A DNA stretch of 59,088 nt, filler included, from Sluysia triapertura (lineage: Eukaryota), in NCBI GenBank assembly GCA_046118255.1. It is 5 parts of 5 records of this genome, joined end to end, with 100 filler letters (N's around TTAATTAATTAA, not from the genome) between each part and the next. Parts side by side here need not be neighbours in the genome. Positions count along the whole stretch, not along the records: positions 1 to 10,875 come from JBJNIA010192240.1; 4 more parts are not named here. One strand, written 5' to 3'. The notes under the pieces are model-generated. The model did no database searches. It was not told the DNA's origin and was given only the letters and a program-made list of their open reading frames with translations. This document shows, piece after piece, positions 2,580-49,559 of this stretch (position 1 is its first letter; every line of letters begins with the position of its first letter). The translations under genes and the position numbers were made by a program.

Positions 2580-3500
2580 TGTATTACTTTGTTGTGGTGG
2601 CCAACCTTTCACTATTAACAAATTTTATTAAAATCTTTCCTTCTTAATACAAAAAAATCACATTCACCCTCAAAATTTACAATTTACATTCAAAAATCAA
2701 CACTTTGTATATAAAACCATATTCTCTAACATTTTAACATTCCCATATTTATCTCCTTTACATCCACTAAAACAATTTCATCCGCTAAAATCATTTTAAA
2801 TCCACAATCTCATAATATTCAAACCATCAAGTTACATTAAAAAAAGTTTATCTAAAATATTCTATTCTTCATTTCACCAAAGTTCAATTACTACGTACCA
2901 AAATCTAAACTATAACTTATCTCCTTTCCAAACACTAAACTACACTTTCGTTCAATGCATTTTAAGTCACACCTCCAAATAGCTAAACATTACTTTCACT
3001 CAAAACTTCAATGTATATTTATCATTCATTTTAAACAGTCAAATTATTTCAAAATATTTAAATCATAACTTTTCAATACTCAAGCTCATCTTCAGTCAAA
3101 AACATTAATTAGCATCTAAAAATTCATTGTAAACACTCTACACATAATCATACAGCATTATAACCACAATCACATATTAAAACATCAAGCATACATTTAA
3201 AACTAATTCAAACTAATTTTCATTTAAACCTGTTTTTGTCAAAATAAATTTAAATATGTCAAGAAATATTAAAGATCTAAAAGCAAGATGATGTAAATTT
3301 TAAGATTTTAAAGAATTTAAGAACTTTATGTATTTATAATAATAATAATGACGATAACATTGTTGCTGTTGTTATTGTTATTATCATTTTTAATTTTCTT
3401 TAATTTTTAATATTTTAAAAAAGATCTTTAAAAGATTTATGTATTTAAATAATAATGATAATAGCACCATTGTTATTATTATTATCACCATTTTTATTTT
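2580..3500 (+). repeat. Strand-skewed (A/C-rich, G-poor) periodic tract, copy A of the unclassified multi-gene element
   Basis: Begins GTGGTGGCCAAC and resembles the reverse complement of 41880-42800 (GTTGGTCACCAC) and 37680-38385. Followed by an AT-rich, T-rich tract. Confidence 0.7.
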
Positions 3501-3524
3501 TATTTATCAATCTGCTAATTTAAT

Positions 3525-3775
3525 TGACACTATCGATGGTGACACTATGAGTAGATATGTGTGAAGTGTTGTCATCATCGATGGTGGTTGATTTATTTGC
3601 TTGACGTGGATTTCGCTGCATTATTGGCTGTCTAATCACAACCATTCTTTTCATTAATTTTACTGATTTAATTAGACAGCCAATGGTGACAGTTGAATCA
3701 CACTGAAAATTGTCAACATTACAATTTGGTAGTAGTGCGGCCAACTAGGGCACGGCATGAGTGTTGCCGTGAGCG
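3525..3775. other. Cluster of four inverted repeats (hairpins) upstream of the copy A ORF
   Basis: GACACTATCGATGGTGACA/TGTCATCATCGATGGTGGT; ATTGGCTGTCTAAT/ATTAGACAGCCAAT (perfect 14 bp); TGACAGTT/AATTGTCA; CACGGCA/TGCCGTG (perfect 7 bp). Confidence 0.75.
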
Positions 3776-3938
3776 GTGCTACACACAGATCATCGTTAGG
3801 AGTACTGAAAATCAAAATTTTGGTGATAATAGACTACACTTACATTGCTGACAATTAATATAAGACAGTTTAGTTTAGAATTATCTAACAATTGAAAAGT
3901 AACGGTTAAATCAATCATAAATATTAAAAAATATTGAA

Positions 3939-5237
3939 TTGCCAGATATGATTTTCAATCTTATTAATTTGTCTTTATCAATATCTTCTAATTATTTCAA
4001 AAATCATTTTAGAACCAAGTCACATATTAAAATTAGTAATTTTCAACAAGATAAAGAAAATTTTAATAAGATTTTTAATCATATTCATGTTAAGGATATT
4101 GAATTAACAGTAATAGATGTTATGACTATATTAGATGGTACGGAATGTTTAGAAGTGAGTTGAAAATTTAATTTAGTTCATAAGCGTAAAAAATTTGTTG
4201 ATCATATAGTTCATCAAACTGAATATTTCCATGGCATTGAATATTTAGTGTATCTAATTGAAAATGCATTAAAATACAATATTCGTTCTGAACAATTAAA
4301 AGAACAACCTTTAAATTTGGTAGTTCATATTTGGCTACGTCAGTATACCTGCCACAAGATACCTCGAAAAGATCAATATTTAGATGACAATTTGATATTT
4401 ACATCCACAACAAATTTACATTATTCATTGATTATTATGTTTACTGAAATGAACCTAATTGATGTAGATAAATATTATGGTATTGACAAATCCTTGATGG
4501 ATAATTTTCATACAATAATTTCGGAATCATCCGACGATAAGTCAAGTAAACGTGACAATGAAATTAAGAACGGTTATGCAAGTTCAAACGAAAGTATTAA
4601 TCAAGACTATGATAATAAAAATTACAATAAAATGATACAATTACTGAATTTGATAAAACAGCAGTCCTTAATAAAATTTTAGAAACATTATTGGATTTAA
4701 TAAATAGAGGAGTTCATATTGGCGTAGATAAGCTAAAAGACATAATAGATTTTTGTGATCACAAAGATGTTAAAGAATTAATTGATGCAGCAATCAAGTC
4801 GAATGGAATTGACATTGTATTAACCAATCATAACGTTTATTCGCATGTCCCTAATCATACGCTTCATGATAAAGTTTCAAAAGAAATCATATGTAAAAGG
4901 ATAAAACAATTAAATAAGGGCAAAGCCTATCACTGATTATCAAACCAATGTTACAAGTTATTCTGAGGACGCACAAAGTAATAATTTGGCCACCGAATCA
5001 ACGAAAGATACTCATGCTACTAAGATTAATCGAATGCTATGTCCTTACAAATCAAATCTCAACGGCCAATGTCTAAGATTTGGAACTACATGCAGATTTG
5101 CACACAATATAAACCAACTTGAAGAACCAATACCCTCTGGCAGCTTCCCAACATCACATAAAAATAGATTAGATAAATATAGAAATTGTCCCGAAGACGA
5201 AATTCTCGTGCCAAATCAACGATTCGAATTCAAATAA
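3939..5237 (+). pseudogene. Disrupted ~430-aa ORF ending in a CCCH zinc finger, with possible CARD/DED-like helical domains (element copy A)
   Basis: ORFs 3939-4163 and 4248-4682 are in one frame, separated by a single TGA. ORFs 4691-4936 and 4986-5237 follow through frameshifts. C-terminal CPYKSNLNGQCLRFGTTCRFAHNINQL is a C-x9-C-x6-C-x3-H finger. Confidence 0.65.
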
Positions 5238-6004
5238 AGTAAAAATTTATAAATCTAATAACAAATTTTTATTATTTATGTCTTTTATTTTAGATGTTGG
5301 AACTTTTATAGATCCCAAATGGCATATTTTGGAAGATTCAACTTTAATTTATGTTTTAAATTTAATAATCAATAGATTTAAGGAATTTCGTTTTTCTTCT
5401 TTTAGTTCAATCAGTTTAGAAGTTACTTTCATCACATTTGTAAAAATTATGAACACGTTTTATAATTTGAGAATTTATCAAAATTTGCTTTACAAACTGA
5501 TAAATTTTAAGATATTATTTATTTACTGAAATATAAATTTAAAAATTTGTATGTTTTTTAATCATAATAAATCTTATGTGTTGCTTTCGAGATTTAAATG
5601 TGTATATTTTAAGTGCACATTAAGTTATATCTTAACTAACTTTTCAAGATCTTTCAAATAATATTAGAAAATATTTTTATATAAGAACTACTAGAGTTAA
5701 TTCATTTGTTCTATCGAACATCAGATTCAATATTGTATTATATCATCTACATCAGATATGTACACAAAAATTAACCTTACACAAATTTCAAAACATATCC
5801 CATTGCATAATACCATATGCACTTCTAAAATAATAAAATTTTAAACAAATTTAATACATTAACCTTATTAAATTTCAACTTTTGTAAACCACATAATTGC
5901 GATTGTCATATTATGGTTATTCATTTTCTACCCTTCTATTTTCTTCATATTTCATCTTTTATTCATTTAATTTGAAAGTGATTTGTTAATTCTAATTTTT
6001 TTAT

Positions 6005-6110
6005 TTCGTCAATGTGCTCACTGGTTAGTTTTAATAGTCACTTTGGAGTTGTCGAGAAGAACAACTTATATTTACGGTGGGATGGTAAATTTAAAAATCA
6101 AACATTGCTA
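6005..6110 (+). mobile_element. Penelope-like RT fragment
   Basis: LEL..RTTY / LRWDGKFKNQ across a frameshift resembles the PLE RT motif TYFxFNGxxYKQ. Confidence 0.4.
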
Positions 6111-7499
6111 AAAATAAGTGAAATAGATAACTACTGATAGTTGCTTTAATCAAAACAGTAAATACAATTGAAACTCAAAAACAAAAGTAGAAAAACTAAT
6201 TTAAAAGAAAATAAAAAAGCATTAGTATATTTAGCAAATAATGTGTATTTACTTGAACAGATTTGTCTGCTTGATGAAACAATTTTTGATCAATCATTTA
6301 GTAATAGTTATGCAATCGAGGAACAACTGAAGAATGAATTTATTGTGAACTTCCTTTATTAATCTATGTTAATCTAGGTTAAGAAATATTAATTATTATT
6401 GTGATATTATTTTTAGAATATAGTTTATTAATATTAAGAACTTACAAGGTCACAGTTAGTCTCAAAAGTTAATATTTCAGTTATTATATCTACGATTTCT
6501 GAATAGATCAATGTCACTTTAAAATATAATGAAATGTGAGTTCACAAAATGAATGTTCAGTTCACATGGTTACCAGAGAAGAAATATTTGAAGTTCTACA
6601 AAGTTCTAAATTTCGATCATTATGAAATATCGCATAATGATAATCGTTCTCATATTATAAAGTCAGCTTTTATTAACATTTCTTGGAAAGATTGTGATAC
6701 TTTGATGAAGCCAGATTATTTTAGCAGCAATGAAACGTTTAAATATAATGGGGTTTTGTGATACATGGTTTGAAAATCAAGCTATATTTGTGCAATTAGA
6801 ATTTATGATAGGTGCTACATTTCAGTGTACGTGGTATGGGACAGATAAAAATAACAAGACTCAATTTGAAAATATGTTGCTCTATATTCGAATAAAACAA
6901 TAAATTACTCTTTCAATCTTCACTTAAAAAATTTATATTTAATAAATTTCAAATTATAAATACAATGAAATTCAGGAGATAGAAAAAACATATTTACATA
7001 TTATTACATATTGACCACAATGATAAACAGTCATTGCGCAATAGCCCTTACATCTTTTCAACACTTTAATTTCACCATTCTTCGACTATTACCACCATTT
7101 TGTAAGCGTTAACATTTGATAAAATAAATATTCAAAAAGATAAAAATGACTTTATCATCAATATTTTATCAGCATTAATATCTATTTCAAATAATTATTC
7201 GAAATTTATTGTCATTTTATTTTGACATTATTATTATTATTGTTATTATTATTGTTATTTTTATATTTATTACAAAATTTTATTATGTCTATTAGTTTAA
7301 TTTCAAAAATTACTATATTTTATTACTATTATTAAAAGTTATTTATTATCCTCGAAGATCAGTTGTACTATAACAATTAGAAGACGATAGAAGTTAAATT
7401 TCTGCATATGTTTTATGAGTATTTAGTGATAACAATAGATATTCATAACAGAATGTAACATTTATTATAATAGACATTTAAAAATATATAATAAAAGTT

Positions 7500-7830
7500 T
7501 CTAATATATTATATGATGATACTGCATGCAACTTCAAAAAACATGAACTTCTGTAAATGAATGAAGAATTATGTAAAAGTTTGTCATATCTTACTGGCGA
7601 TTCACGTTCGTTTATAGGTCAAAGTAAAAGAAATATTCTCAAAACATTAATTAATTAATTTATTATTGAATTATTCGACAAAATATAAAGATTATATTAT
7701 AACTCAAATTTTGGAAATAATGTGTAAATTTTTTGCACAACTTGAACCCTTCTTGAATAATTAAATGGATTAGATTTGCGAAAAATATATAGAGAATTAT
7801 TTGGATCCTTGGAAAATCTCAATGGACCAT
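7500..7830 (+). mobile_element. Penelope-like GIY-YIG endonuclease remnant
   Basis: SRSFIGQSKRNILKT at ~7603-7648 resembles YIGQTxRxLxxR. Multiple stops. Confidence 0.6.
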
Positions 7831-7870
7831 TTGAAAGTGTTTTTAAACTTTCATCAGTTTAAAAGCTCAA

Positions 7871-7947
7871 TTGTATGAGTTGTTTGGTCTTGATGCTCCT
7901 GATGAAGTGGAACCCAAAGATTTTCCAATGAAAATCTATAACTCAAT
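7871..7947 (+). ncRNA. Degenerate hammerhead-ribozyme-like motif downstream of the Penelope endonuclease
   Basis: CTGATGA (7899) - stem II AGTGGAA/TTCCAAT - GAAA (7930). Flanking TGAGTTG/TAACTCA can pair. Stem III and the cleavage triplet are poorly formed. Confidence 0.45.
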
Positions 7948-8799
7948 ATTTTATTTAATAGCACTAAAGTAATTAAAGTTTAAAAAATATAAGTGTAAAA
8001 GAAAACAAAACCAAAATTGAATTAAACGCATATGATATATTTGTACAAAAAATGCAAAATCAAAATCGGCTGAATTTAAATCAACTATTTATATCAAAAA
8101 AGCAATTCTATTTTATTTTACAATTACATTTTCCTCTTGTTTTATTGGTAATTAAAAATGACTGTACAAAAATTATAAATGCTATAACTGTGCATGTAAT
8201 GAATTTAACTAATAATATTATATGAATAAATGTAAATAAATCAAATATTAACATGCACCTAATAGAATTTAATGTTTATATATGAGATTAAATATACTAA
8301 AAATGAATTTGATTAAATATATTAAATAACGCAGATAAACAATTTATAAAATATAAACTTTTTTGAATAGTTAAAATTGAAACCAGTTATTGAGATCATC
8401 ACAATTAAAATTCGAATCGAGATCGTCACAATTGAAATCGAAATTTGTAATCGAAATCGTCAACTGAACATTTGTAATCAAGATAGTTATAATTCAGATT
8501 CGATAAGATTTTTTTCAAAGTTTATTTTATTATAATTTTGAGCAGGTTTAGAATTAAATAATTAAAATTTCATTATTATTTTATATATTTTGTCTTATGT
8601 AAATAATTTTTGTGTTGCAGTAGCTAGATAAATTTTTTCTTGTCCTGTAATACATTTATAATAAAACTGGACATTTATTAATTTGCTAGAGAGGTTGAAA
8701 AATAAGATTTAACGATAATAAATTATAAAATTTTAATTGGCACTTCCATTTAGTATTGAAATTAGAAATAAAATTAGAAAAGAGAATTTAATATGAAGC

Positions 8800-9080: not shown

Positions 9081-9742
9081 ACTAGAAACCTTAATGAATT
9101 TAGATTGTTTCCACTAGGATTAATCAAATTCAAGATTCAGTTAAAATTTTGGCGAAATTAATTTGATAATTTGATAAACAATATCGTCATAGTGTAAGTA
9201 GTTTTGGTAGCTTTTTATTTTTAAACTGTATTTTGTCGTAATTTATTACTGGAACCAGAGTTCCTCTAAAATCAAAGTATTTAAAATGCGACCCTTAGTT
9301 TCAAATTTAAAATCTTCAAAATGAAAAATGAATTTAACGTTAAAGATTATTGTACAAACATTAAACATTGATAAATTGTCCATCAATAAAAACCATATAT
9401 TTAATATTTAAATTCAACATTGTTAGCCGATGTGTTTAAATTTAAAAAGCCTTTGATTATATATTTGACAAATGTTACAAAATATGTTAAGGTTTTTCTT
9501 AACTAACTGTATCATAATTTTTTAGAGTTTCAGATAAGATTGGCCTTTTTCTTACCACAATAATCTGACAGCTCAGAGTAATAATACACTAACTGATTCT
9601 GAAATACCTCTTTAAAATAGAAACACCCTCATTATAAAACTGTTTAATATCAGTTTTGGTGGATCTTTATTGTATTTTCACATATTAAAAATTTCAAACA
9701 AACAATGTCTTACTTATTTCAATTTATTATTTTAACATTTAG

Positions 9743-9902
9743 TAAAAGAAGCGCGTAATTTAGTTCCTATGGATCCCAATGGACTTGCTGATCCTTACGT
9801 GAAAATTAAACTAATGCCAAGTGATGAACAAAAAGATAAAAAATTCAAAACTAAAACGGTAAGATCAAGCTTAAATCCTGTTTGGAATGAATCATTTCAT
9901 AT
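9743..9902 (+). CDS. PKC: Internal exon of a conventional protein kinase C (alpha/beta/gamma type), C2 domain
   Basis: TTTAG|TAAAAGAA...CATAT|GTTAG. Encodes (V)[52 protein letters not shown], close to the cPKC C2 signature NLIPMDPNGLSDPYVKLKL...KTKT.RS.LNP.WNESF. Confidence 0.93.
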
Positions 9903-10029
9903 GTTAGTTGTAAATAAGTATTTAATGAATTTTTTGATTATTCATTTAATATTTAATATCTTATATTTATTTTTGTTTTCGTTTTTTAAAGTAATTTTAA
10001 ATGAACAACATAGAAAATACTATTCAAAG

Positions 10030-10875: not shown

Positions 10876-10975
10876 NNNNNNNNNNNNNNNNNNNNNNNNN
10901 NNNNNNNNNNNNNNNNNNNTTAATTAATTAANNNNNNNNNNNNNNNNNNNNNNNNNNNNNNNNNNNNNNNNNNNN
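10876..10975. other. Assembly gap with artificial linker (44 N + TTAATTAATTAA + 44 N); the same at 22940-23039, 35555-35654 and 47753-47852
   Basis: Identical 100-bp construct four times. TTAATTAATTAA gives stops in all six frames. Confidence 0.95.
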
Positions 10976-11005: not shown

Positions 11006-12012
11006 TCATCTGTTACTTCTCATCAATTCTTCCTTCATTTGTAATTCTATGTTTTTTACTCGTCTCTTAATCCAAAGTTGGACAATCCCAACAATTTTAA
11101 ATTTAACAATATTCATAAAATTTAATCCAAACAATGTAACTAAATTAACGAACGTTGTTATATTTAACGAAAACAACCAAAATAAAAGAATAAAATGCAT
11201 ACATGAATGAGTCAATGGAAGCATAGAAATAATAGAAGTAATAGAAGTACGAATCAGAATATACATAAATACTGAAAGAGCAGTATGAAAGTGATGTTCA
11301 GAAATTTTGAAATTAGCTTCATATAAACTGAATATTACGAATGCCATTTGTACTAGGAAAAGTGTAAAAGTAATAAACGTTTGTAGGAAGTTAAATTTTG
11401 GTGGATAATAAAGTTTCAACGTCAGTGATATGTGAATTTTGACACATACTAATTGCAAATCGTAGATCACCAGTGTTATTGAAATTTGAATGCAAAATAT
11501 TGTTGTGGTTTTCATAATATGAGTACAATTCATTAATTTGACTAGAACATAACTTAATAACCGATAAAAATAGCGAAGATTAACGAATATCATTAATTAA
11601 TGCCATATTTCATAATTCTGCTAATTTGTGATAGGTATATATTGATTTATTTTTACCACATTAATTATTAATTAATATTAATAAAATAATAATTTTTAAA
11701 ATATTTTCAAAATTTTACGAATTTTCATTTAATTCATGTTTTGACTCTGTATAATAATTGTTAAATTTGTAAGATGGTGTAATTTTCCTAAAATCCATGG
11801 TTGATCTATATATACCAAACAGAAATAAAAAAATAATAATAAATATACAAGAAACAATAAATAAACATATATAAAAGAAACAACTTTACAATATAATGAA
11901 GTAGAAGTAGCAGATATAATAATAAATATATGCATAAAGATGAACATAGATGCATGCAGAAAAGGAACATTATAACAACATTTATAAACAGTGTAACGAC
12001 GATAGTTATCAT
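11006..12012 (-). pseudogene. Tandem hydrophobic multi-pass membrane ORFs (11806-12012/11729-11947 frameshifted pair, and 11006-11593), possibly part of the unclassified element
   Basis: Successive 20-aa hydrophobic segments. Similar in character to 32017-32268 and 34888-35502. No recognisable family motif. Confidence 0.4.
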
Positions 12013-26289: not shown

Positions 26290-27900
26290 GTTAAAGAAAT
26301 ATTTCACGAAACTAATTGAAATAAATCAAAATGTGAGTTTTTCATTATCAGACCTAAATCATTTATTTGATCACTCGATGGATCAAAGTTATTCTCAATT
26401 ACTGATATCAACCAGACATTTTATCATACAGATTTAAATGAAGTAGATAAAGAGAAAACAGCATTTTTATATAGTGTTGGATAATATTTTAATCGTATGT
26501 AGTTAGGTATATGTACTGCACCAACAACATATCAGAAACCAATGCACCAAATTTTATAAGAATTACTATTAAAACAAATCGTTTACTTATGATTTAAGCT
26601 GGAATTAAAATGGATTGGGAAAAATATCACTTCTACAGAATCAAGTAGCAATTCTTAGGCCATATTATATTGTAAAACATTATTGTGTCTTATATAACAT
26701 TTTTCCAATAACAAATTCATTGTTTATATTAGATATAGATGCTTATTTCTCCAAAATTGGATAAAATATTGTCTTCGTTTTAAGATAGTAACTTCAAAAT
26801 AAATCTTATTATTTATATTTATATTTTAAATATTACTTATGTGCACACGAATTTATTGTAGGATCACATGATACATTTATGTGATCAAAGTAACCTTTAA
26901 AACTACAATTTCGGCCATGGATAACAATTCTTTCTGAATGAAATTCTGAACTTCAAAAATAAGGAAAATATAAAAATACTCATGTTAGAATATTGCAAAT
27001 GATGTAGCATCGAGAAAACAGGTATCAAATACTTAAATTTAATTTAAATAAAGAATAAATTCAATGAATTCGTACAAAATAATAAGGTTTTCATTTTAAT
27101 CACAAAAGTTTAAACAAATCATTATTAAATATTTTTATAGAAAATGACCAGCTATAAATACCAGTAGAAAATGAATCTATTGAAGAATACATTAATAAAT
27201 TTTATCAATAAAGGTGATAAGTAGTAAATCGCTTTGTCAGATAAAAAGTAAATCAATTTAAAAAGTAAATATTAATTTAGGCGAAATAACTCAGACATTG
27301 AAAGTATAAATATTTTTTAGTAATCATTGAATAGTTTAGTAAAGTATTATATTAGAAGCTATTTTAAATAATTTAATATATGAGTTTGGTAAACCATAAG
27401 AACAGTTTCCTAGAGAGGTCGAAATTTTACATAGAATCTTATAAAAATTCTTAAAATTTAATGAATATTTCCATCACTTTTGCAACACAACTATATCCGG
27501 TTGGCAAGAACAATACACAATAGTTTAAACAATTAAATTTGAAAGAAAATTTTCGTGCAATCAAATTTTAGAAAGAACTGAGTTCACAATGAATAGTACC
27601 AAAAGTCATCGGCATATCACTAATGGAAAAATAAAGCTACATTGGGAAAGAAATATAATGACAAAATCCAATAATGTATCAAAAGCTCGTAAAAATATAG
27701 AATCAGGAATAAAATTAGAATTTTATAAAAGCGAAAAAAGAATCCATCGAGGTTTCAAAGTTGGAAATTTAGTAATGGTTTAAATAACCCTAAACTAGAT
27801 AAAACAGAAATGCGATATGAATGTCCACACAAAATTATATATTTTATATAAACATCAAGTGTGTTTAAATGCCGGATGTGGTAAAATATATTGAAGACAG
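26290..27900 (+). mobile_element. Heavily decayed Ty3/gypsy pol (RT-RNase H-integrase)
   Basis: In order: DLNEVDKEKTAF, FNRM*LGICTAPTTYQKPM (cf. RMPFGLxNAPATFQ), FILDIDA, ANDVASR, EFGKP..GRNF, GFKVGNLVMV. Confidence 0.85.
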
Positions 27901-29292: not shown

Positions 29293-29569
29293 CTAGAAAA
29301 TAAAGAATACATTTTGGAATTTTATGGTTTACATGTACTATTATTAATTTTAGTATTAAAATTAATATAATGAAAATAAAAATGGATTATCAAAGAGAAA
29401 ATATGTTTTTCGCAATTCATTAATAAATTTTTACAAGTAAAAATAAGAACTACTTTTTAAACTAAACTCCATTCTATTACTTATATAACAAAGCCAGAAT
29501 CGAATGAACAACTCTTAAATAAACTAAAATTGTTAAAAACTTAATAACATTAAAACATTAAAATAATAA

Positions 29570-30050
29570 TCGATTCACACTTTCTGCAAATTCATCAAAC
29601 TATTGTGAGAATAAAAGCAGCCAACGAGACAAGTGAAACTGTAGCTCCCAAAAACTCAAATTCAAAATTGTCTAATTCAGGGAAATATTCGAGTGGAATT
29701 TCCTAATAGCAGCAGTCTAACAACCAGTATTGAGAGCAGATATTCTCAGTTATTAAAGCTCCACAATTGTCTCGCATAAAAATACAAATAGATCAACTTA
29801 ATGAAATATTAATTCGTATGTGAAGCAAGTGTATCCCAATTTACTTCGCCAACAATTCAACCCAAATTATACACCTAGCTCGGAGCCCTTTATCAAAACA
29901 CAACTCATTTTACCGTGCAGACAAAGAATAAAACTCTCAAAAAAATCCGTTCTCCGGCAGAGCTCAAAAAAAATGAATTGTGCAACGATATTTATCAACT
30001 TGGGTCGCACCATTCGCATAAGAGGTGACTATCGAATTTTTAGGGATGTA
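29570..30050 (+). mobile_element. Second Ty3/gypsy pol fragment (protease to RT start)
   Basis: FEWNFLIAAV*QPVLRADILSY (cf. FxWxFxIADVxxPILGADFL), then TWVAPF and GDYRI. Confidence 0.75.
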
Positions 30051-32016
30051 TAAAAAATGATTCTGAATTTTTAATTTTATCATTTTTGCTCCTGCAAATA
30101 TATTTTAGCATTAGTTTTCTTTCAATGTTTATATGAAATTGTTTTTTAGAATTTAATATTTATTTTAAACTTTAAGAATTTAAAAGCCGCTTAAGACCGT
30201 CAAAACCAAAACAACGAAATTGAAACAAACAATTAATCATTTAAAACAATGAAAACTCAAAAACGAACGGTTAATTAAAAGCAAAACAAAAAATATTAAT
30301 CTGACACAGTTCGTATCCAAAATTTTATTACATTTAATTCCAACAACGTTCGATATTATATTAAAATGAACACAGAGAAAATATTCAAAGTATTAAATAT
30401 TTTAGTATCAAAATTTATAGTATCTTTTTCAACAACATTAATACAAACAAAATTACATTTATAATTCTTTCTTAAATATTGTATCCACCTGACAATCAAT
30501 GATAAGATATTTAGAACGAATAAGATATATAGAAACTAAAATTCATTTCTAAGGCTTGTTGTAAGAACTCCCTTGTTCTCCACCATTCAGAGCTAGTTGT
30601 AATCATCATATGAAGAATAAATATAACAAAAATCAGAAAATGGGTTTCATGTTCAAATCGCTCGTCAAACACTCAAAACTGTGTTACAATTATTTTTAGC
30701 TAAAACATTTAACATAAAATTTGTAACAAATATTGCAAGTATAAACGAAGAAATATTAGCAAGGTGTACGCCAAAACTGAGAATTGAATACAGATTTGGT
30801 TTATTTAATGTAAATTTGATTTAAATCAGTGTTCACAATATTTCTAGTTTCAATATGATAATAAATGGCAAAGAAATGGTATATTATAAAAATTAGGACT
30901 GTTATAATAAATGCTTGAAATTAATTTTTGAAATTGAAATACCAAAATATAAATAAATATTGAAAATGTTTGTGTGCTTGAATAAATAATATTAATAACA
31001 AATATTAAATGATTGTTGAATAATGAATTATGAATATAATTACTGAATGGTTAATGAAATATGAATGTTGATGCTGAAATTACAATCAGTGTTATGCTAA
31101 AAAATTGATAGTATGAATAATTTTAGTTTAAATTTTACTGTTTAAAAAATTACACATTAATTTCGTAACAAATTTAATACGTAAAATTTATCTGTAATAA
31201 TTTTGTAATAAATCAATTTAACTAATAAATTCTATACAAAATTTAATAGTAATAATAGTAATTTAATAAAAATAATTTTTTGTACATATTAAAAATAGAA
31301 TAAGTTAAAAAAGAATTACAATAAAGGAGAAAAACGATTTCAGTTTTCGAGTTAAACATAATTTTAATAATCATTTCATAAATTTTATTAATTAATTTCG
31401 AATTTGAATCTATCAAACGACTTGGTATCTACATTAATAAATCATATTCGGCAGACAAATTATTTGATTGTTCAAATTTTCAGAGATTATCGAGCAATTC
31501 AGAATTACCGATCAATTTCCAAACTCGGATTTGACAAATTACATTTTTTAGTTTTCTTTTTTCTGCATTTATTAAAATAAAAAATTAACTTTATTTTAAA
31601 AAAATTATAAACTTTTTTTGTTTTATTTAAAGTTTATAATAATATAATTTAAAATATAATTTTATTTGTGCTTGTTAATAAATATTTGATTGAATCAAAA
31701 ATATTACTTTATAATTTTCTAACTAGCACTTTTATTTTTAAGAACAGAGACAAGTATCGAACTCATTATCCGAAAGATATTAAATAAGTTAAGCACAAAG
31801 TTAATTAAATACAGAGAGAATTTTAATTTTAAAGAAAATATACTATTTTTGTTATTTTTATATTTAAAATTACAAATTTTAAAATTAGAATTAAATGCAA
31901 TAATAATTTTTTTAATTTTTGGACTTTTATTCTCGGCTTAAGGCCGTTAAAAGCATATAACATAAACATTTCAATTGTAGCCGATTTAATTAAAACACAA
32001 CAATAACATAACAAAC

Positions 32017-35502: not shown

Positions 35503-35654
35503 TTTTACGAAATTTAAAACTGTAAATGAACCAACAATAACTCCAATAAAAACANNNNNNNNNNNNNNNNNNNNNNNNNNNNNNNNNNNNNNNNNNNNTT
35601 AATTAATTAANNNNNNNNNNNNNNNNNNNNNNNNNNNNNNNNNNNNNNNNNNNN

Positions 35655-36031
35655 GGATACTATGAAACTATTAATCAAAAGTGTATAAAAACATTGTCAC
35701 GGAAAATGCAAAATGTTGGAAAATAACTACTGTCTCCAAAAAATTCTGGTGAAATTAAAATAATAGATAAAAATACTGAGATCCAAAGCTTACAGAAATT
35801 TTATTCATGTAGGTAGAATGATAACACAAATAATTTCCTGATCATTAAAGGCAAAAGTATTTGATCTCGTCATCGTGATGCCATACTTTGATCATGGTGA
35901 TTGATGTATGGGTAGAAACTCTCCTTTTGACAATCTACCACAGATTTTCTATGGGATTCATGTCTGGAGAGCAAATATTAAGAAAACCAAAGAAAAACAT
36001 TTTTCCCGTTTTAGTCTAATAATTTGTTTGG
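35655..36031 (-). mobile_element. Tc1-family deleted element, copy 2
   Basis: Reverse complement of 18349-18830 (TCTCCAGACATGAATCCCATAGAAAATCTGTGG). Truncated at the gap. Confidence 0.9.
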
Positions 36032-36320
36032 TTTTATATAATTATACTTGATTGAAATAATATATTTATTTAAAAACTTTACTAATAAAATTAATTTAAA
36101 TTCATTAAAATCTATTATTGCAAATTGAAAACAATAACTAAAAATATCTATATTAATTAAAACTTTATAAAAACTGAATCTTTTTACAGATTGTCCTAAT
36201 TTTTTTGAAGATACCACGTAATAAACTTCATACGGTTCTCTTAAAAAAGTTCGGCATAGAAAATAGTCGAAGTTAATAAAAATAAAGAAAAATAGAAAAT
36301 TACTTATGGCTCGTCGTGTA

Positions 36321-36584
36321 TTACGGGGTCCAATGGAACGTTGATGCGATTGCCATCGATAGTTTTAGTATCTTAAATAGATAATTTTTCCAAATGTAAT
36401 ATGCTTCCAAAGGTTGATAAGAGAGTTTGCATTCTCTTGTAGTGATCATTATCATTTGACGAACGACTAATAGTACATTGCATTCGAAAACTCCATGACA
36501 ATATTTGCAATTCTTATTATATCTGGAGCATTCTCCTGTTTCAGTTAATTGGTATAAACAAAGATCTGTTTTCTCGACACTCAC
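36321..36584 (-). pseudogene. CCCH zinc-finger ORF (element copy B)
   Basis: KTDLCLYQLTETGECSRYNKNCKYCHG has the same C-x9-C-x6-C-x3-H spacing as copy A. Confidence 0.65.
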
Positions 36585-37356
36585 TATAATTTTTCAGACA
36601 TTCTGATCGTTTACAGTTACATTCCTTATGATGCAACTTTTGTCGTTGTCCAGAACCTATTTTAGGTACAAATGACATTGGATCTTTATTCAAAATCCTC
36701 AACAGAGGTGACGAATGATTTTTTCATGAATCAAATTATTCATACGATTGTTGCAGTTATAATTGACACATAATTTATCTCGAGCAGAACATTCACAATA
36801 TAACTTTAAACAATATGATTTTTGTATAAATATATGGACTTTCATGATTATCAAAAACAGAATCAATTTGATTAAGAGTTAATAATAATACAATAGAACA
36901 ATAATTTCCATTCATTTGCTCGAGTTTAACAATCTTTTCATTCTGAGTAACTTTAGTGGTTTGAATTTCCTTCGTTCTGGATTTTTGATTGTTGCATGAT
37001 TCTTTATCATTTAAATTAGATAATATTCGTTTTACAGCTTGTATCATTAAGATATTGTAAATAAATTAAAAAATATTTAAATAGATAAGCACATAAAAAG
37101 GTAATAATATTTCTTTACACGATACTTAATATAAAACACAAATTGCTTTATAATTAGCTATCATTGGGCATCCAATGAGAAAAAGATTATAAATATACCA
37201 AGAGTAGTAATGATTGGATGTCCAATCGAAATGTAAGGTGCGAACAAAAAGGTAAATGTATCCCTGTGTACTTGTAAATGTGTGCCTGTCACCATAGGAA
37301 TTTCAAAGTTAATGATTACAAAATGTGAAATGGTGACAGGTGATGAAGTTTTTTAA

Positions 37357-37587
37357 CCTTTATCGTACGCTATTTATATTGATTTGTATTACCTGCCGGA
37401 CGGAATTAATTTGCAAAAGGTGTGATCAGGTGCAAATATTTACTTAAAATAACATAGCTCACGTACTATTTACACTAGATTTATGAAACGAAAACGAAAT
37501 TAAAGAGAATGGAATTTTCTATATTCCTATAATTCGGCAAACGAGTACAAACATTGGTTAATATATTAACCATTCGTACGATAAAGG
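37357..37587. mobile_element. piggyBac-type MITE, 231 bp
   Basis: TTAA-CCTTTATCGTACG ... CGTACGATAAAGG-TTAA: perfect 13-bp TIRs with TTAA target duplication. Confidence 0.9.
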
Positions 37588-37679
37588 TTAATAAAGGTCT
37601 ATCAAGACTAACAGAAACTAAATTAAAATTTTTATTAATAACGTTGAGACAATTAAGAATGATGATAATAAAAAATAAT

Positions 37680-38381
37680 AATAATGATATTAAAAATTAT
37701 AATAAAGTAAATGAATAAAATAAAATAATAATATTAAAATAAAACAAAATAAATGCATAACTTGTTGTTCTTTTCACACAATCTTTCTTTTGTTACTTTT
37801 TCATTGTTCTTTTTAAAAAAATGAAGTTTTCTTAATATGGTTCTTTTAAAGATCTTTAAAAAATTTTAGTTTATGAAATTCTTTTTAATAAACCAGAAAG
37901 AAAATGATAATGATAATAACTGAAAATTGAATAAAAGAGATAATACTAAAACACAAATTTTTCTTCATAGAAATCTGATTCTTTCATTTCGAATAAAAAT
38001 TTATTAAATAGAATTCCTTTAATTATGTCTGATTATCTTTTCAAAGTCTAAGAAGAAGTAAAATAATAATAATAATGACACGCAGTTATAGATGTTAAAA
38101 GAAATTCCGTTTTGGTTTTGACGTGTGAATTTACTGTTTTTCAATGATATTAATGATTGAATGTTGAAGAATTATGAACTTTAAATGTTTTGAATCAATT
38201 TTGAAATGTACGATTGAAAATTTTAAATGTAAATTATGATTTTATTGTTATGAAACTGTGAACTTAAAATGATCTAAAGTATTGACAATTTTAAATAATC
38301 CTAAAAGAATTGAATTATTGAATATTCTGAAGAGTGGTTTTTATGTCTACTGTTAAGTTAAAATTTTAAGATATTTGGTTG

Positions 38382-38385
<4 letters not shown>
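37680..38385 (-). repeat. Strand-skewed periodic tract, copy B; further partial copies at 30930-31150 (-) and 53500-53760 (+)
   Basis: Shared units such as GTTTTGAATCAATTTTGAAATGTACGATTGA...ATGTAAATTATGA with 42240-42480. Confidence 0.7.
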
Positions 38386-38412
<27 letters not shown>

Positions 38413-38417
<5 letters not shown>

Positions 38418-39049: not shown

Positions 39050-40740
39050 TTGTGTCTAAGAATGTGATGTTGTATCATCGAGATTGTGTCGATTTATGGA
39101 CAATGGAAATTCCTAAAAATACAAATACAGCAAATATATACAAAGAACATACATAGACCTTGTAATGCGACACGCTAACATGCTAATTTTATGAAGTTGA
39201 TTGATCACATTTATAAATCAAATTACTTACATTAAGGAACTACATACGATGTTTCTCTGGAGGATAATTATTATAAATATAATTACCGAAATTATAATAA
39301 TGATAATAAATGAAAATTAATCAAATATGAAAATAAATTAACCGGACTTTTATAGCTATAATAATAATTATAATTATAAATATAATTATAATAATAATAA
39401 TCTTAAGGATATTTGCAATGTTTTATTATTATTTTATAATTTTGTCATACAATTTCATTAAATGTATACATATATAGGGTAAATGTATATTCGCTTGTGG
39501 AAGTCCATTCGAGCCAGTTCAGTATGGATATAATTATTTAGTACCTAGTCAATGTAACAATTCTTATATTTTCCCAGGAGTGGCACTTGCTATAGTCATG
39601 TTTAAAATTCGACCGATTACTGATGATATTTTTATTACAGCTGCTAATGTTAGTATTATATTATTTACTAATTTCCCTGTCTTTAATATCCGAGATTTTC
39701 TTTCCGTGTTCCTTCGGGAATTGGATTTATTATTTATTATTATATTACATTCAAGTAAAGTATTTCAACAAATTAATAAATAATTTTTCTAAAAATCTAA
39801 TGTATTATATGTAAATAAGCATTTTAAACATGTACGGATTTTTTAATGTTTGATTAAAACATTTAATATAAATTTAAAGGGAAAATTTGAAAATACGAAC
39901 CTTTTTTAAAAATTTGGAAAACATTAACTTTTTCTTCAAAATTGGACAAATCTTTCATTAATTGTCCTTAAATTTGACATTATCTGATCAAATTCTGCTT
40001 CTGAAAATGTATTCGCAGCTCTTCAAAAATGATTCATAGCATTCGCATCTCTAAATTTCAATCTTAAATTTTTAGCAATGTGCCTTATACAGTATGAGCT
40101 TGATCAGTTTGGAGCCATTGATTGCAAAGCATTTAGAATACCCTTGTCTGTGTCTGAAAATATTATTACATCAGGTGAATTCAAAGAAAAGTTAGTATTG
40201 TCCAATTTTGAAAAAAAAGTTAATGTGTTTTCCAAATTTTTAAAAAAAGTTCGTGTTTTCCTAATGCCCCTAATTAAATGAACATTATTTAACATATCGC
40301 ATTATGAGCGAGACAAGTATTAGTACCTGATTCGTGGGCTGTCAATTAAGAGCGGGCGAGTATTTATATCATTTGAAAAGTATTTCAAAATGTGCAGTCG
40401 AGGAGTTCAATTATAATTGAAATAAGTATTCATTCTAAGTATTCGTAGTTTGAAATTTGAAAACTCCACCTTTTACTAATATTATTGTTCAATTTCTCCA
40501 TTATGTGGTAAATTTCTTTCTACAGTTGATAGCTTATAAATGATTTTAATATATGTATTATCGTAATAATATGGTCAATTTCATCTATTTATTAATTTTG
40601 GTAGTTGTGTTTGTCTCCCTTTTTTTACTTATATTTTAATAAAATCATGTTTTTTTGTACTTAGGTGCTTCTGCCTAATATGTCACCTTTACTTCTATTC
40701 TGTGTTTAATGAATTCTATTTTTGTTTTATATATTTCTTG
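39050..40740 (-). mobile_element. Mutator/MULE transposase pseudogene
   Basis: PDVIIFSDTDKGILNALQSMAPN*SSSYCIRHIAKNL (cf. ISDRDKGLxNA...CxRHI). Possible SWIM remnant (MLACR) near 39170. Confidence 0.85.
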
Positions 40741-40848: not shown

Positions 40849-41199
40849 ACTTAAATAAAAATTAGATATATTATTGTTTACATAATTATTAAAGTCAAAT
40901 ATTGTTTTGAATATCACAATAATAAATGAGTGTGCTATATTTAGAAAGTCCATAATATACTTTCTCGCTCTTTTTCTTGTGTGTCTAAAATGGCAAAAAA
41001 CGCCTCCTTATGTATTATAGCCAAAAATTTAATTGTTTATAATTAAACATAACTTGTGAATCAGAATCATCATTAACAAAGGCCAATACTTTAAACATAC
41101 ATGTTTCATCAATATTGTTGTGATTTAGAATAGTTTAATTCACTAAATCATTTTAATTGATTTAAAAATAGGTTTTTATAACAATATTTTTTCTTAATT

Positions 41200-41880
41200 T
41201 TTAAAACTTTTATTCCTAAGTTAATATTCATCGGATCTAAAAATAACAATGAATTTAGAAGTTTACAAATAATGAACGAAAATCTGTAAACACAAAACTT
41301 TTTATTCAACGTATAAAATTTAAAAAATTGATCATTTAGGAAGATTATTATGTTACTCTCGATGAGACACGCTTCGCTATCTAAAAAGGAAACAAAAGTT
41401 AAGTTGTCTTTGATATAATAATAAAGAAAGTTTACTTTATCACAACCAATAGATCCAACGTTGTCGAATATCCCTGAAGTTGTTAGTCCTAAACTTGCGA
41501 ATAAGTTTGTTTCCGGGATGTATATTCGAATCTATCATCCAACAACTGATTTATGGTGTACACATGTACACAATTAAATCAAAATTTTGTGCATTTGTCA
41601 TTTCGGTCACTAGTATATGGGCAAAGTGCTCTTTTAAGATATAGATTTGAACTTCATGAATCATTGAAATAGTTGTGTGGAATTGAATTGATCGCAACCG
41701 AAGAGAATGACATTAAGTTCTTGAATCTATAGTTAAAACGTTGTCGTTTATGAGTATCAGTATAATGGTATACCGAACATATTCCAAATATTTTTTACAT
41801 TCATTTTTGTCCTCTGTATTTAACTGAGATAAGTTAATTCGTAAAGCTTTAGGCTTGCATTTATCGTTATTATCTTAAAA
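41200..41880 (-). pseudogene. CCCH zinc-finger gene remnant (element copy C), absent from the ORF track
   Basis: 41629-41543 reads ALCPYTSDRNDKCTKF*FNCVHVYTINQL and aligns without gaps to copy A MLCPYKSNLNGQCLRFGTTCRFAHNINQL. Confidence 0.75.
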
Positions 41881-42800
41881 GATGAAATTAATGATATCAA
41901 AAAATGATAATTATAATAGTAATAATTAAAATTAAATAAGCATAAAATAAAATAATGATAATAGTAAATTAGCTAAAACATAAATTCCTTTCTTTATCTT
42001 AATACATGAGCTCTCTAAATACAATAACATGATCTTTCTTTACTTTAATTTTCTTTTTTCTTAACATATTATGAAATAAATCGTTTAACTTTATGTTTTA
42101 AGATAAAATTGTTTTTTAGTTCTTGATGATTGGAATGTTTACAATGGTTTTAGAGTCATTTGAAGTGTGAATTTGATGTTTTTCAAAGGTGTTAAAGAAT
42201 GAGTGTTGACGATTGTGAAATTGAAATATTTTAGGTTGTTTTTATAATGTGTATTTGATAGTTTAAGATGTAATTGTATTTTTAATGTTATTAGATAATG
42301 ACTTTAATGTTTTGAATGAATTTTTAAATCTAGATTGATGGTTTTAGATGTAAATTGTGGTTTGAATGGTGAAAGTTTGCGAATTGAGCTGTTTTGAATA
42401 ACTTTAAATTGTAGATTAATGGTTCTGGATGTAATTGTGGTTCTGATGTTATGAATTATAGGTTAAAATGTTTTGAATAAAATTTAATGTGTGTTGGTGG
42501 TTTGGGATGTCGATGTAATTTGGTGTAATAGGTTTGTAACTCAGCATATATTGAAATAAGAATATATGAAAAAAGGTTTTCATAGAAAATAGTTAGGATG
42601 TTATGTAATGTGAGATGTGTTGAATTGAATTTAACATGTTTTAGATTAATTTTTTAAGTGTGTAATTGATGATTTTCGGTATAAAATGTGAATTTAATGT
42701 TATGTAATTTATATTTGGAATGTTTGGAAGTATTGTGAAAGGTGATTTTGTTGTGAATTTTTTTTGAGTTGGTCACCACAGTAATGAATTACACAATTAA
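41880..42800 (-). repeat. Strand-skewed ~78-80 bp periodic tract, copy C
   Basis: Repeating unit TAGATTGATGGTTTTAGATGTAAATTGTGGTTTGAATG...GTTTTGAATAA near 42250, 42330, 42410 and 42490. Confidence 0.75.
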
Positions 42801-47752: not shown

Positions 47753-48976
47753 NNNNNNNNNNNNNNNNNNNNNNNNNNNNNNNNNNNNNNNNNNNNTTAA
47801 TTAATTAANNNNNNNNNNNNNNNNNNNNNNNNNNNNNNNNNNNNNNNNNNNNATAACGGAATCTACGTAACATTATCATTTAAATTTGTTACAATTGACA
47901 TATAATTAAATTTCTAAAACATTTACCTCCAGAATTAAGGTGTTAGGTAAAATCGCTATAGTCTAAAGTCAAGCATCTTTTCTTACATTAAAATCCAACG
48001 GCTGGACCTCGCTGGTATGTCCAGTACGTTGATGAACTCACGTTAATTTTAATTTTAATTTATTCTTTAACAATCATTTCTTACAATTGTATAATTAGTT
48101 TGGTAGAGAATATAACTGAAATTAAATCATATTTTGTTGTATGAATTTTTAATTATTTAAAATTAACTCAGTGTTACATTAAAGTATTTAAAAGACATAA
48201 TTCTATGTACAAAATAGCTTGATTGTACATAAATGAGTATAAGTTGCGGAATATAAGTAAGTTTACATAAATATAGATGTGAATGTTCAAAGAATTTATT
48301 TTAACTAATTAAATATCAAATGTTCTCGATCCATTATTATTCATTTTTTCAACAAAATGAGTAATTGAGCAATAATGAAAATAAAGATGTATTCGGTAAA
48401 TGGTTAGTTGTTCACATAATTAGAATTAGCAAAATTTGGAATGTTATATTGATCAATGCTATTGTTGTGTCTTATAAAATTCTTCGATTTAATTCATTTT
48501 ACTCTATAATAACTTCATAATCAAAATTCAATAAATTAAAATTATAGTGCTAGTATTATAATTTAACTAATCGCACAATTATCAATAATAATATTCAAAC
48601 TAAGCAGAACAATTATAAATTGTATATAATACAAATAACTATTGAACAATCAATCTTCGTATAATATTGTTAATTAGGCAAATCATTCGATAAACCAAAG
48701 GTGAGGAAACCAAAAAAATAGAAAAAGATATCAAAGGGTAGAATTAAAAGGGGATTTTATCCAAATAGTTCAAAATTCAATTTCCTTTTAATAAAGTTCA
48801 GAAAAACTAAACAGACATTTTTATTAAATAATGAAACAAAAAATTATTAAATATATCGATTTATAGATATTTTGTTAATTAAAAGCATTGTTTAACGACT
48901 ATGAAAACAACCAATAATATTAACATTAATTTTCAAATAAATTTTACAGGAAAATTAAATAAACTTATAAAAGTAA

Positions 48977-49518
48977 ATGATTTTATTATTAATTTTCTTG
49001 AATTTAACACTAATTGAATGTATTTGTCCAAATCCATATACTTTACATAACAATGTTTGTTATTTGTTTATTAATCAACCAACTAAATATTGTGAAGCAG
49101 AAAAACTTTGTGCTGTACATAATGGCACTTTAATAAGTATAGAAAGTATAAAACAAATCATTGAAAATATACCATCACAAAAATATTGGATAGATGTAAA
49201 TGATTTAATGTATGATAGAAAGTCAAATAGAACTGGTTGGTTAAGAATAAATGGATCAGAATTTACAAATATTAATTTATGGGATAATGGCGAACCTACA
49301 AATGAGTTTAATAATGAAAAATGTGGATCTCTAAGGTCGAATAGCATTAATGATGTTCCATGTGATACTAAATTACCATTTTTGTGCGTATATAACGCAC
49401 ACATGACAGCAACTAATTTAGTGCTAATTAACGATATCAATGTTCACTATTATTCAAGTTCCTATGTTAATTGTTTCGAGGAATACCAAATACATTCTCA
49501 TTTCGAATGCGCTACCAA
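48977..49518 (+). CDS. Secreted C-type lectin domain protein, first coding exon (ORF runs to 49534 if unspliced)
   Basis: Signal peptide MILLLIFLNLTLIEC. CTLD motifs CP...CY, EAEKLC...GTLISI, YWID, W..GEPT, EKCG, INDVPC...FLC. Likely donor ACCAA|GTATGA. Confidence 0.9.
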
Positions 49519-49559
49519 GTATGAATTTATTTGATTCTTTTAAAATTTATTTTTCCATT

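What the first reader, a model, noticed from the sequence alone, without database searches (positions are those of the whole stretch)
2580..5600. Unclassified large multi-gene repeat family in three diverged copies with a conserved layout
Seen: copies A (2.6-5.6 kb, +), B (36.0-38.4 kb, -) and C (41.2-42.8 kb, -) each begin with the same skewed periodic tract and carry a CCCH finger at a matching position. A and B have the unusual C-x9-C-x6-C-x3-H spacing; C aligns to A (LCPY.S..N..C..F...C.....INQL) with its His and Gly codons mutated. A and B also share downstream sequence (AATAGATTTAAGGAATTT vs AATAGATTTTAATGAATTT). All copies are disrupted. Inference: a dispersed, formerly mobile multi-gene unit (giant retroelement accessory region or endogenous virus) rather than a host gene family. 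Known analogues with many accessory and TM ORFs are planarian Burro LTR elements and bdelloid Terminons, but no homology to them is shown here.
Basis: partly seen in the sequence, partly recalled or inferred. Interest (0 to 1): 0.85.

Follow-up and report, generated by a model that had tools for sequence, protein, structure and literature searches.

The report
Decayed gene-capturing zinc-finger retroelement family
Three broken copies of an unnamed jumping-gene family share the same start region and an RNA-binding zinc finger, and two of them carry different pieces of ordinary cell genes placed right in front of that finger, which suggests the element picks up host genes.

Summary
The three copies are real homologues. 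They share a non-coding C/A-rich tract with a degenerate ~80-nt repeat, a CCCH finger (TTP/POS-1/Unkempt-like), and an open 117-127-codon hydrophobic frame after it. A and C also share a start motif. B carries a LIN-54/tesmin CRC segment (PDB E 6e-9; 73% identical to one unnamed protein) that ends where that protein ends and abuts the finger. A carries a weakly supported BTB-like frame. C has almost no cargo. In A the 5' 1.14 kb reads like an LTR (TGT...ACA, then a PBS-like site), but B and C show this only in part. No 3' LTR, PPT, TIR partner, or linked gag/pol or viral gene was found, and no fourth copy. The quoted downstream A/B match is out of register and not significant. Best reading (about 0.5): 5' remnants of an unclassified LTR-type retroelement that swaps host mRNA segments in front of a constant CCCH module, as Bs1-type LTR retrocopies do. 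Rivals are a host gene family and a Pack-type DNA element. Membership of Burro or Terminon is not supported.

The parts
2580..2605 (+). Copy A start motif (TGT-start, shared with C); candidate 5' end of an LTR-like module
   Evidence: A-C alignment 0/500 shuffles, nothing shared further upstream, 143/500; core 13-mer seen 0 times in 200 shuffled windows; coordinates
2606..3250 (+). Copy A C/A-rich non-coding tract with a degenerate ~80-nt repeat (U3-like)
3250..3520 (+). Copy A A-rich then T-rich tract
   Evidence: A-C 5/200, A-B 70/200
3500..3830 (+). Copy A hairpin zone; holds ATTACA at 3718-3723, a Met-type PBS-like site at 3727 (9/12) and a Leu-type site at 3684 (10/12)
   Evidence: fold z -4.95, 0/100 shuffles; sites; reference 12-mers from the PMC13524379 supplement
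3921..5024 (+). Copy A cargo: intronless frame with an N-terminal BTB-like part, broken by one stop (4161) and two frameshifts (near 4650 and 4925)
   Evidence: Pfam BTB E 0.007, below cut-off; phmmer hit P0003, a BTB protein, E 4e-4, 28%; tblastn of P0003 on the window E 4e-10
5025..5237 (+). Copy A CCCH finger and tail (end of ORF1)
   Evidence: zf-CCCH_UNK E 1.4e-5, below cut-off; PDB 6nzl/1m9o/5elh
5173..5529 (+). Copy A ORF2 (118 codons, +1 frame, overlaps the end of ORF1), function unknown
   Evidence: 0/500 and 0/300 shuffles; no Pfam or PHROG hit
38090..38384 (-). Copy B shortened C/A tract; start obscured by an (AT)n run at 38385-38414
37600..38090 (-). Copy B A/T-rich tract
   Evidence: B-C 2/200
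37240..37610 (-). Copy B hairpin zone, with 17-bp and 11-bp inverted repeats and a Leu-type PBS-like 9-mer at 37294 (no CA before it)
   Evidence: fold z -4.32, 0/100; homology to the A hairpin zone depends on parameters (7/500; 39-142/500)
36571..37065 (-). Copy B cargo: LIN-54/tesmin-like segment (N-terminal stretch, CXC1, hinge, truncated CXC2), four frameshifts
   Evidence: two Pfam TCR hits above cut-off; PDB 5fd3 E 6.3e-9; P0005 73%, E 2e-16; 84/150 identities over P0005 aa 19-174
36321..36570 (-). Copy B CCCH finger and tail, directly abutting the CRC end, with a frameshift just after the junction
   Evidence: (zf-CCCH_UNK E 1.7e-4)
36011..36364 (-). Copy B ORF2 (117 codons); its 3' end is cut by a Tc1-like repeat at about 36026-35655
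   Evidence: 1/500 and 0/300
42768..42793 (-). Copy C start motif
42100..42767 (-). Copy C C/A tract, the clearest ~80-nt repeat
41850..42100 (-). Copy C A/T-rich tract
41443..41714 (-). Copy C short ORF1 with a degenerate finger and no recognisable cargo
   Evidence: Pfam none
41148..41531 (-). Copy C ORF2 (127 codons)
   Evidence: 0/500 and 0/300; ESM atlas no usable hit

Best explanation
A, B and C are decayed 5' remnants, or non-autonomous derivatives, of an unclassified LTR-type retroelement lineage in an AT-rich animal genome. The constant shell is a ~1.0-1.2 kb non-coding 5' module (TG start, ~80-nt repeats, A/T tract, hairpins; in A a TGT...ACA boundary followed by a PBS-like site), then an ORF1 ending in one RNA-binding-type CCCH finger, then an overlapping hydrophobic ORF2. 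During RNA-based replication, by template switching onto co-packaged mRNA or by splicing of a captured exon onto the finger, different lineages put host coding segments in front of the finger: a LIN-54 CRC segment in B, a BTB-like segment in A, little or none in C. The copies were mobilised in trans or lost their gag-pol, then decayed. SHOWN: homology of the shell, identity of B's cargo, adjacency of cargo and finger, open ORF2 frames. INFERRED: LTR identity, RNA-level capture, original in-frame fusion, RNA binding by the finger.
For: A and C share a start with no upstream homology. The tracts are non-coding repeats. A and B both have structured leaders. CA-spacer-PBS-like sites: 2 of the 5 positions in the whole window fall in A's 450-nt leader (37/2000 shuffles have at least one, 2/2000 have two). 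The middle differs between copies: CRC in B, BTB-like in A. B's match to P0005 runs to P0005's penultimate residue. P0005 then ends with Val-stop in the middle of CXC2, whereas LIN-54 continues. The four residues that follow in B match A's finger lead-in at 3 of 4 positions. I read that Val-stop as run-on into a GT intron, which would put B's junction at an exon end (inference). LTR retrocopies with part of the internal ORF replaced by mRNA segments are documented (PMC5131818, passages). Accessory ORFs with ubiquitin-pathway domains occur in giant gypsy elements (PMC6431247 section 7).
Against: No 3' LTR. No PPT-like tract downstream of any copy. No gag, RT, RNase H or integrase hit on the copy strand downstream of A (to 8000), of B (35554 to 27900) or of C (41100 to 38420). 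The only RT hit (26251-26800, +) is unlinked. A-B leader homology is not robust. P0005 is unnamed and could be another element copy or a pseudogene rather than the host gene. The BTB call is below the Pfam cut-off, 2 of the 3 phmmer hits were repeat-driven noise, and PDB gave nothing. The stretch after ORF1's stop also reads as a GT..AG intron of 55/64/55 nt in A/B/C, which would fit an unprocessed host gene. The ORF2 proteins are not significantly similar to each other.
Confidence: 0.5

Rival explanations
1. A lineage-specific host family of single-finger CCCH genes that gained N-terminal domains by exon shuffling, spread by segmental duplication or retroposition, and decayed. The 5' module is a shared promoter or 5' UTR.
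For: The finger is of the cellular TTP/POS-1/Unkempt type. A GT..AG pattern sits at the same place in all three copies. No TE enzyme is linked. Only three copies are detectable.
Against: About 1.1 kb of non-coding leader is conserved while ORF2 has diverged beyond recognition. The GT..AG stretch lies inside a frame that is open for 117-127 codons in all three copies. No intact member was found in protein searches (0 of 35 candidates; 0 of 13). The 5' boundary is sharp and starts with TG.
Confidence: 0.2
2. A Pack-type DNA element (hAT, MULE or Helitron-like). The start motif is a TIR end, the ~80-nt repeats are subterminal binding sites, and cargo was captured as genomic DNA.
For: The start motif resembles ends of other repeats in the window (47620, 54005/54512). 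The window holds MULE, Tc1-like and pogo-like remnants and isolated single exons of malic enzyme and of a C2 domain. Pack-TIRs in animals are reported (PMC8277862, search listing only).
Against: No inverted partner of the start motif near any 3' end at up to 2 mismatches. A and C both start with TG, not CAG or TC. B's junction has no retained GT donor and appears to fall at an exon end (inference).
Confidence: 0.18
3. The upstream accessory region of a giant Burro-like gypsy element, in which BTB and CRC are long-held element domains rather than recent captures, and whose polyprotein has been deleted here.
For: Burro elements have tandem repeats, upstream accessory ORFs and host-like regulatory domains (PMC6431247). 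A gypsy-like remnant lies about 1 kb upstream of C on the same strand; it was recognised by eye and shares a 16-aa match with another remnant (E 5e-4).
Against: No MATH, BIR, ankyrin, BCL2, env or gag hit. The remnant upstream of C has no Pfam or PDB support. A and B have no such neighbour. The cargo differs in every copy.
Confidence: 0.08
4. Fragments of an endogenous large DNA or RNA virus.
For: BTB and CCCH domains occur in some large viruses (recalled, not tested).
Against: No polB, capsid or other viral hit. About 1.3 kb of low-complexity non-coding leader per copy. B's cargo is a cellular DREAM-complex domain.
Confidence: 0.04

Closest known systems
LTR-mediated retrocopies / Bs1-type chimeric LTR elements (Tan et al. 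2016, PMC5131818; abstract and passages seen)
   Same: A partial host coding segment replaces part of the internal region inside an element-derived shell, junctions show short similarity, and the products can be non-autonomous.
   Different: There the flanks are recognisable, named LTR families with both LTRs. Here no 3' LTR or gag-pol is seen, and the cargo sits in front of one constant CCCH finger in two separate copies.
Burro/GYPSM1 giant gypsy elements of planarians (PMC6431247, section 7 read; the primary genome paper was not held)
   Same: Tandem repeats, accessory ORFs, host-like regulatory and ubiquitin-pathway domains.
   Different: No gag-env-pol polyprotein and none of the listed domains. 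That review does not contain the word CCCH (0 occurrences).
Bdelloid LTR elements with captured ORF3, and Terminons (PMC5408684 passages; PMC6431247 passages)
   Same: Small hydrophobic extra ORFs and modular ORF acquisition.
   Different: Their extra ORFs lie downstream of pol or next to an Athena RT with hammerhead ribozymes. Here there is no RT and no Rfam ribozyme.
LIN-54/tesmin/TSO1 CRC domain (PF03638, PDB 5fd3)
   Same: B cargo: CXC1, hinge, first part of CXC2.
   Different: CXC2 is cut short and joined to a CCCH finger; frameshifted.
TTP/TIS11, POS-1-like and Unkempt CCCH fingers (PDB 1m9o, 6nzl, 5elh; PF25427)
   Same: Cys3His pattern with aromatic and Gly positions and a similar tail after the His.
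   Different: A single finger with C-x9-C-x6 spacing, scoring below the Pfam cut-off.

Membership tests
Ty3/gypsy-type LTR retrotransposon | Two direct LTRs | tested here: not met
   No same-copy downstream repeat of the 5' module. B is cut by a Tc1-like insert and a gap, so truncation is possible.
Ty3/gypsy-type LTR retrotransposon | TG...CA termini | tested here: inconclusive
   A: TGT at 2580 and ATTACA at 3718-3723. C: start only. B: start obscured.
Ty3/gypsy-type LTR retrotransposon | PBS directly after the 5' LTR | tested here: inconclusive
   A 9/12 Met and 10/12 Leu; B 9/12 Leu without CA; C none. 37/2000 shuffles, post hoc.
Ty3/gypsy-type LTR retrotransposon | Polypurine tract before the 3' LTR | tested here: not met
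   None found downstream of A, B or C.
Ty3/gypsy-type LTR retrotransposon | Linked gag-PR-RT-RH-IN | tested here: not met
   No Pfam hit on the copy strand in the flanks scanned; RT remnant at 26251-26800 is unlinked.
Ty3/gypsy-type LTR retrotransposon | 4-6-bp target-site duplication | not testable with these tools
   3' ends are undefined and no genome was available.
Burro/GYPSM1 | Giant gag-env-pol polyprotein with MATH/BIR/ankyrin/BCL2 domains | tested here: not met
Terminon / Penelope-like | Athena RT and hammerhead ribozyme in the terminal repeat | tested here: not met
   Rfam at E<=1: 1 match, the (AT)n run to mir-297; no RT linked.
Pack-TIR (hAT/MULE/Tc1) | Terminal inverted repeats at both ends | tested here: not met
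   No partner motif near the 3' ends; true ends may be lost.
Helitron | 5' TC start, 3' hairpin plus CTRR, RepHel | tested here: inconclusive
   Start is TG; 3' end undefined; no RepHel hit in the scanned frames.
LTR-mediated retrocopy (Bs1 type) | Host mRNA segment lacking parent introns, with junction microsimilarity, between element flanks | tested here: inconclusive
   B junction coincides with the end of P0005.
LIN-54/tesmin CRC (B cargo) | Two complete CXC motifs joined by the conserved hinge | tested here: not met
   CXC1 and hinge present, CXC2 truncated: derived from the family, not a full member.
TTP/TIS11 tandem CCCH proteins | Tandem C-x8-C-x5-C-x3-H fingers (spacing recalled) | tested here: not met
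   Single finger, C-x9-C-x6-C-x3-H.
Classified Repbase/Dfam family | Sequence match to a curated consensus | not testable with these tools
   No such library is on hand.

The most novel reading that the evidence does not exclude
A retroelement lineage that uses a constant CCCH RNA-binding module as a docking cassette. Different sublineages fused captured host regulatory domains (a BTB adaptor-type domain, the DREAM-complex DNA-binding CRC domain) in frame to it and kept the fusions as functional accessory proteins, so that host regulators are steered to RNA. This would be repeated, site-specific domain swapping rather than one-off gene capture.
Probability: 0.17. Interest if true: 0.8.

Novelty: new variant of a known kind. 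Interest (0 to 1): 0.5.

Why it matters
Gene capture by retroelements is known, but two of three neighbouring copies placing different host regulatory domains in front of the same RNA-binding finger would point to a recombination or splicing hotspot, or to selection for such fusions. That is a route to new domain architectures. I saw no report of a CCCH accessory module in a retroelement in the listings of four searches aimed at it, and CCCH had 0 occurrences in the three papers searched for the word. That is limited coverage: subscription journals, Repbase Reports and bioRxiv supplements were not visible. If the copies are instead a dead host gene family, the value is modest.

Tried and rejected
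Protein searches for intact family members: A finger ORF against longer proteins, 0 of 35 candidates; three-finger alignment against similar lengths, 0 of 13; ESM atlas for A 4164-4679 and for C ORF2, no usable hit; PHROGs, 1 weak hit in 12 proteins, ignored; PDB with the A BTB frame and with the remnant upstream of C, none. The AlphaFold model of A's BTB frame from a single sequence had pLDDT 33 and was not searched. P0002 and P0004 were dropped as repeat-driven matches. A 4631-4933 does not match P0003. Fourth copy: nhmmer with profiles of the three copies found none. Of 66 tract pairs compared, only A-C, B-C and an unrelated pair (5750-5963 with 53530-53730) passed both nulls, so the tract after A is not A's 3' LTR. 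A coding origin of the C/A tract was considered because the period is near 81: no ORF excess, and gaps were multiples of 3 in 11/33, 2/10 and 2/14 cases. The codon-phase test had no power (its positive control also failed) and its C self-comparison was invalid. B-C downstream DNA similarity (0/200) vanished with composition-aware scoring (166/500). The start motif as a PBS: neither 8-mer was found in the errantivirus supplement, but that table lists the opposite orientation, so that look-up was uninformative; I set the idea aside because no upstream LTR homology exists. Testing whether B and C lie in introns of a malic-enzyme gene failed because only one exon was found. Rfam and tRNA scans found nothing relevant. 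The identity of P0005 and P0003 stayed unchecked, as did viral and metagenome contig collections. The host organism was not determined.
Full report
Setting. The window is about 24% G+C and has scaffold gaps. It holds a few host-like pieces: C2 domain, malic enzyme, sugar transporter, C-type lectin and a mannose-6-phosphate receptor, the last with introns of about 34-36 nt. It also holds much transposon debris: Tc1-like, pogo-like, MULE and RT remnants. This points to an AT-rich animal genome (inference); the organism was not determined.

The observation. A six-frame scan finds three CCCH-like patterns. Two are the A and B fingers, with C-x9-C-x6-C-x3-H spacing; the third is unrelated. C aligns to A over 32 residues. 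Peptide shuffles give A-C 0/5000, A-B 0/5000 and B-C 6/5000, and the A finger scores 77 on C against at most 47 in 40 shuffled windows. At DNA level the finger regions are not significant. The G-poor tracts are homologous for A-C and B-C (0/200 under three nulls) and marginal for A-B (1-7/200). They show no coding signal (the phase test lacked power) and contain a degenerate repeat of about 79-84 nt. Many segment tests were run, so values near 1-2% should count as marginal.

Directly upstream of B's finger are two Pfam TCR (tesmin/LIN-54 CXC) hits above the cut-off and a match to LIN-54 in PDB 5fd3 at E 6.3e-9. One of 5 candidates in a protein search passed: P0005, an unnamed 175-aa record, 73% identical. 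B follows P0005 from residue 19 to 174, with 84 of 150 identities and four frameshifts. P0005 ends one residue later, in the middle of CXC2, with Val and a stop, whereas LIN-54 continues with further cysteines. At that same point B switches to four residues that match A's finger lead-in at three positions. I infer that P0005 is an exon called through a GT donor, and that B's junction lies at an exon end, which implies capture through RNA. P0005 could instead be another element copy or a pseudogene; this stayed unchecked. A search listing on LIN-54 intron positions gave nothing usable. In A, three end-to-end frames (3921-4682, 4631-4936, 4914-5237) run into the finger. The first part is BTB-like: Pfam E 0.007, below cut-off; 1 credible hit of 3 among 1.84 billion proteins, a BTB protein at 28%; none in PDB. 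C has only about 220 nt between the T-rich tract and the finger, with no Pfam hit.

After the finger. Each copy has an open frame of 117-127 codons that shuffles almost never reach (0/500, 1/500, 0/500; 0/300 each). In A it overlaps the end of ORF1 in the +1 frame. The three products are not significantly similar to each other and are only weakly hydrophobic, and searches found no family. The same stretch also reads as a GT..AG intron of 55, 64 and 55 nt. This ambiguity is unresolved and keeps the host-gene rival alive.

The 5' module. A (2580) and C (42793) share a 26-nt start beginning TGT (0/500), and nothing upstream is shared (143/500). A and B have strongly folded zones before the cargo (0/100 each); C lacks one at that position. 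In A, ATTACA at 3718-3723 is followed by a 9/12 match to a Met-tRNA primer site, and a 10/12 Leu-type site lies at 3684; the reference 12-mers come from the PMC13524379 supplement. Two of five such positions in the window are in this leader (37/2000 shuffles have at least one, 2/2000 have two), but the test is post hoc. B has the Leu-type 9-mer without CA, C has nothing, and A-B leader homology depends on scoring (7/500; 39-142/500). No 3' LTR, PPT or TIR partner was found. Pfam scans with stops read as X found no gag, pol or viral gene on the copy strand in 5600-8000, 35554-27900, 41100-38420 or 46200-42900. The rest of the window was scanned only as open frames of 60 codons or more. A gypsy-like remnant 1 kb upstream of C is recognised by eye, with one 16-aa match to another remnant and no Pfam or PDB support.

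Mechanism. Most likely (0.5), these are 5' remnants of an LTR-type retroelement whose ORF1 ends in a CCCH finger. Host coding segments entered in front of the finger during RNA-based replication, as described for LTR-mediated retrocopies (PMC5131818, abstract and passages). That the finger binds RNA follows from its likeness to TTP, POS-1-like and Unkempt fingers and is untested. The rivals are a decayed host gene family (0.2), a Pack-type DNA element (0.18), a Burro-like accessory region (0.08) and an endogenous virus (0.04). Some kind of mobile origin totals about 0.75-0.8.

Comparison with what is known. It works like Bs1-type or LTR-mediated capture, but membership in any LTR family is unproven because several defining features are absent from the window. 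Burro (PMC6431247, passages and section 7) and Terminon features (PMC5408684 passages) were not met. Eight paper searches were run; their listings showed no CCCH cargo element. PMC13524379 was seen as passages and supplement rows. The primary planarian genome paper was not held, and Dfam, Repbase and bioRxiv supplements were not available.

Verdict. A real, small, unclassified repeat family with swappable host-derived cargo; a new variant of a known kind; interest 0.5. It rests on three dead copies, and only B's cargo is firmly identified.

Noticed in passing
window 5750-5963 (+) and 53530-53730 (+): A second repeat family, also a C/A-rich tract followed by a T-rich stretch (0/100 under two nulls; aligned). 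One copy directly follows A, but it is not homologous to A's 5' tract.
   Followed up: partly
window 12600-11006 (-), 33200-32017 (-), 31300-30800 (-), 57620-58000 (+): Further units with similar composition (C/A tract, ATT-rich tract); two end in hydrophobic ORFs of 196 and 117 codons with 3-4 predicted TM peaks. No detectable homology to A, B or C; possibly distant families of the same class.
   Followed up: partly
window 11056-11099 and 21774-21817: A short shared segment at the end of the 196-codon TM ORF, suggesting a second decayed copy near 21.7 kb.
   Followed up: no
window 39478-39651 (+) and 9736-9905 (+): Isolated single exons of malic enzyme and of a PKC-like C2 domain; no other malic-enzyme exon or kinase motif was found in the window. 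The malic exon lies between B and C, next to a MULE remnant.
   Followed up: partly
window 18352-18850, 35655-36026, 54006-54511: Tc1-like repeat family with an 18-bp TIR and a DDE_3 remnant; one copy truncates B.
   Followed up: partly
window 26251-26800 (+), 29450-30100 (+), 45000-43800 (-): Gypsy-like remnants. The first has an RVT_1 hit (E 4e-4); the other two are by eye, with a mutual 16-aa match.
   Followed up: partly
window 28223 (-): A CA directly followed by a 10/12 Met-type PBS-like site, possibly the junction of another LTR element.
   Followed up: no
window 13355-13945, 16424-16871, 39935-40212, 56601-56792: TIR-bounded remnants, a MULE transposase fragment and a DDE_1 fragment.
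   Followed up: no
window 35550-34891 (-): A 220-codon frame with a sugar-transporter match only in its first 80 residues, on B's strand just beyond the gap; host exon or further cargo.
   Followed up: no
window 48977-49534 (+), 52171-52834 (+), 29292-28855 (-), 47207-46827 (-): A C-type lectin ORF, a mannose-6-phosphate receptor gene with very short introns, and two unassigned ORFs of 145 and 126 codons.
   Followed up: no
window 10876-10975, 22940-23039, 35555-35654, 47753-47852: 100-base assembly gaps with a 12-base all-frame-stop linker in the middle; ORFs crossing them are artefacts.
   Followed up: no
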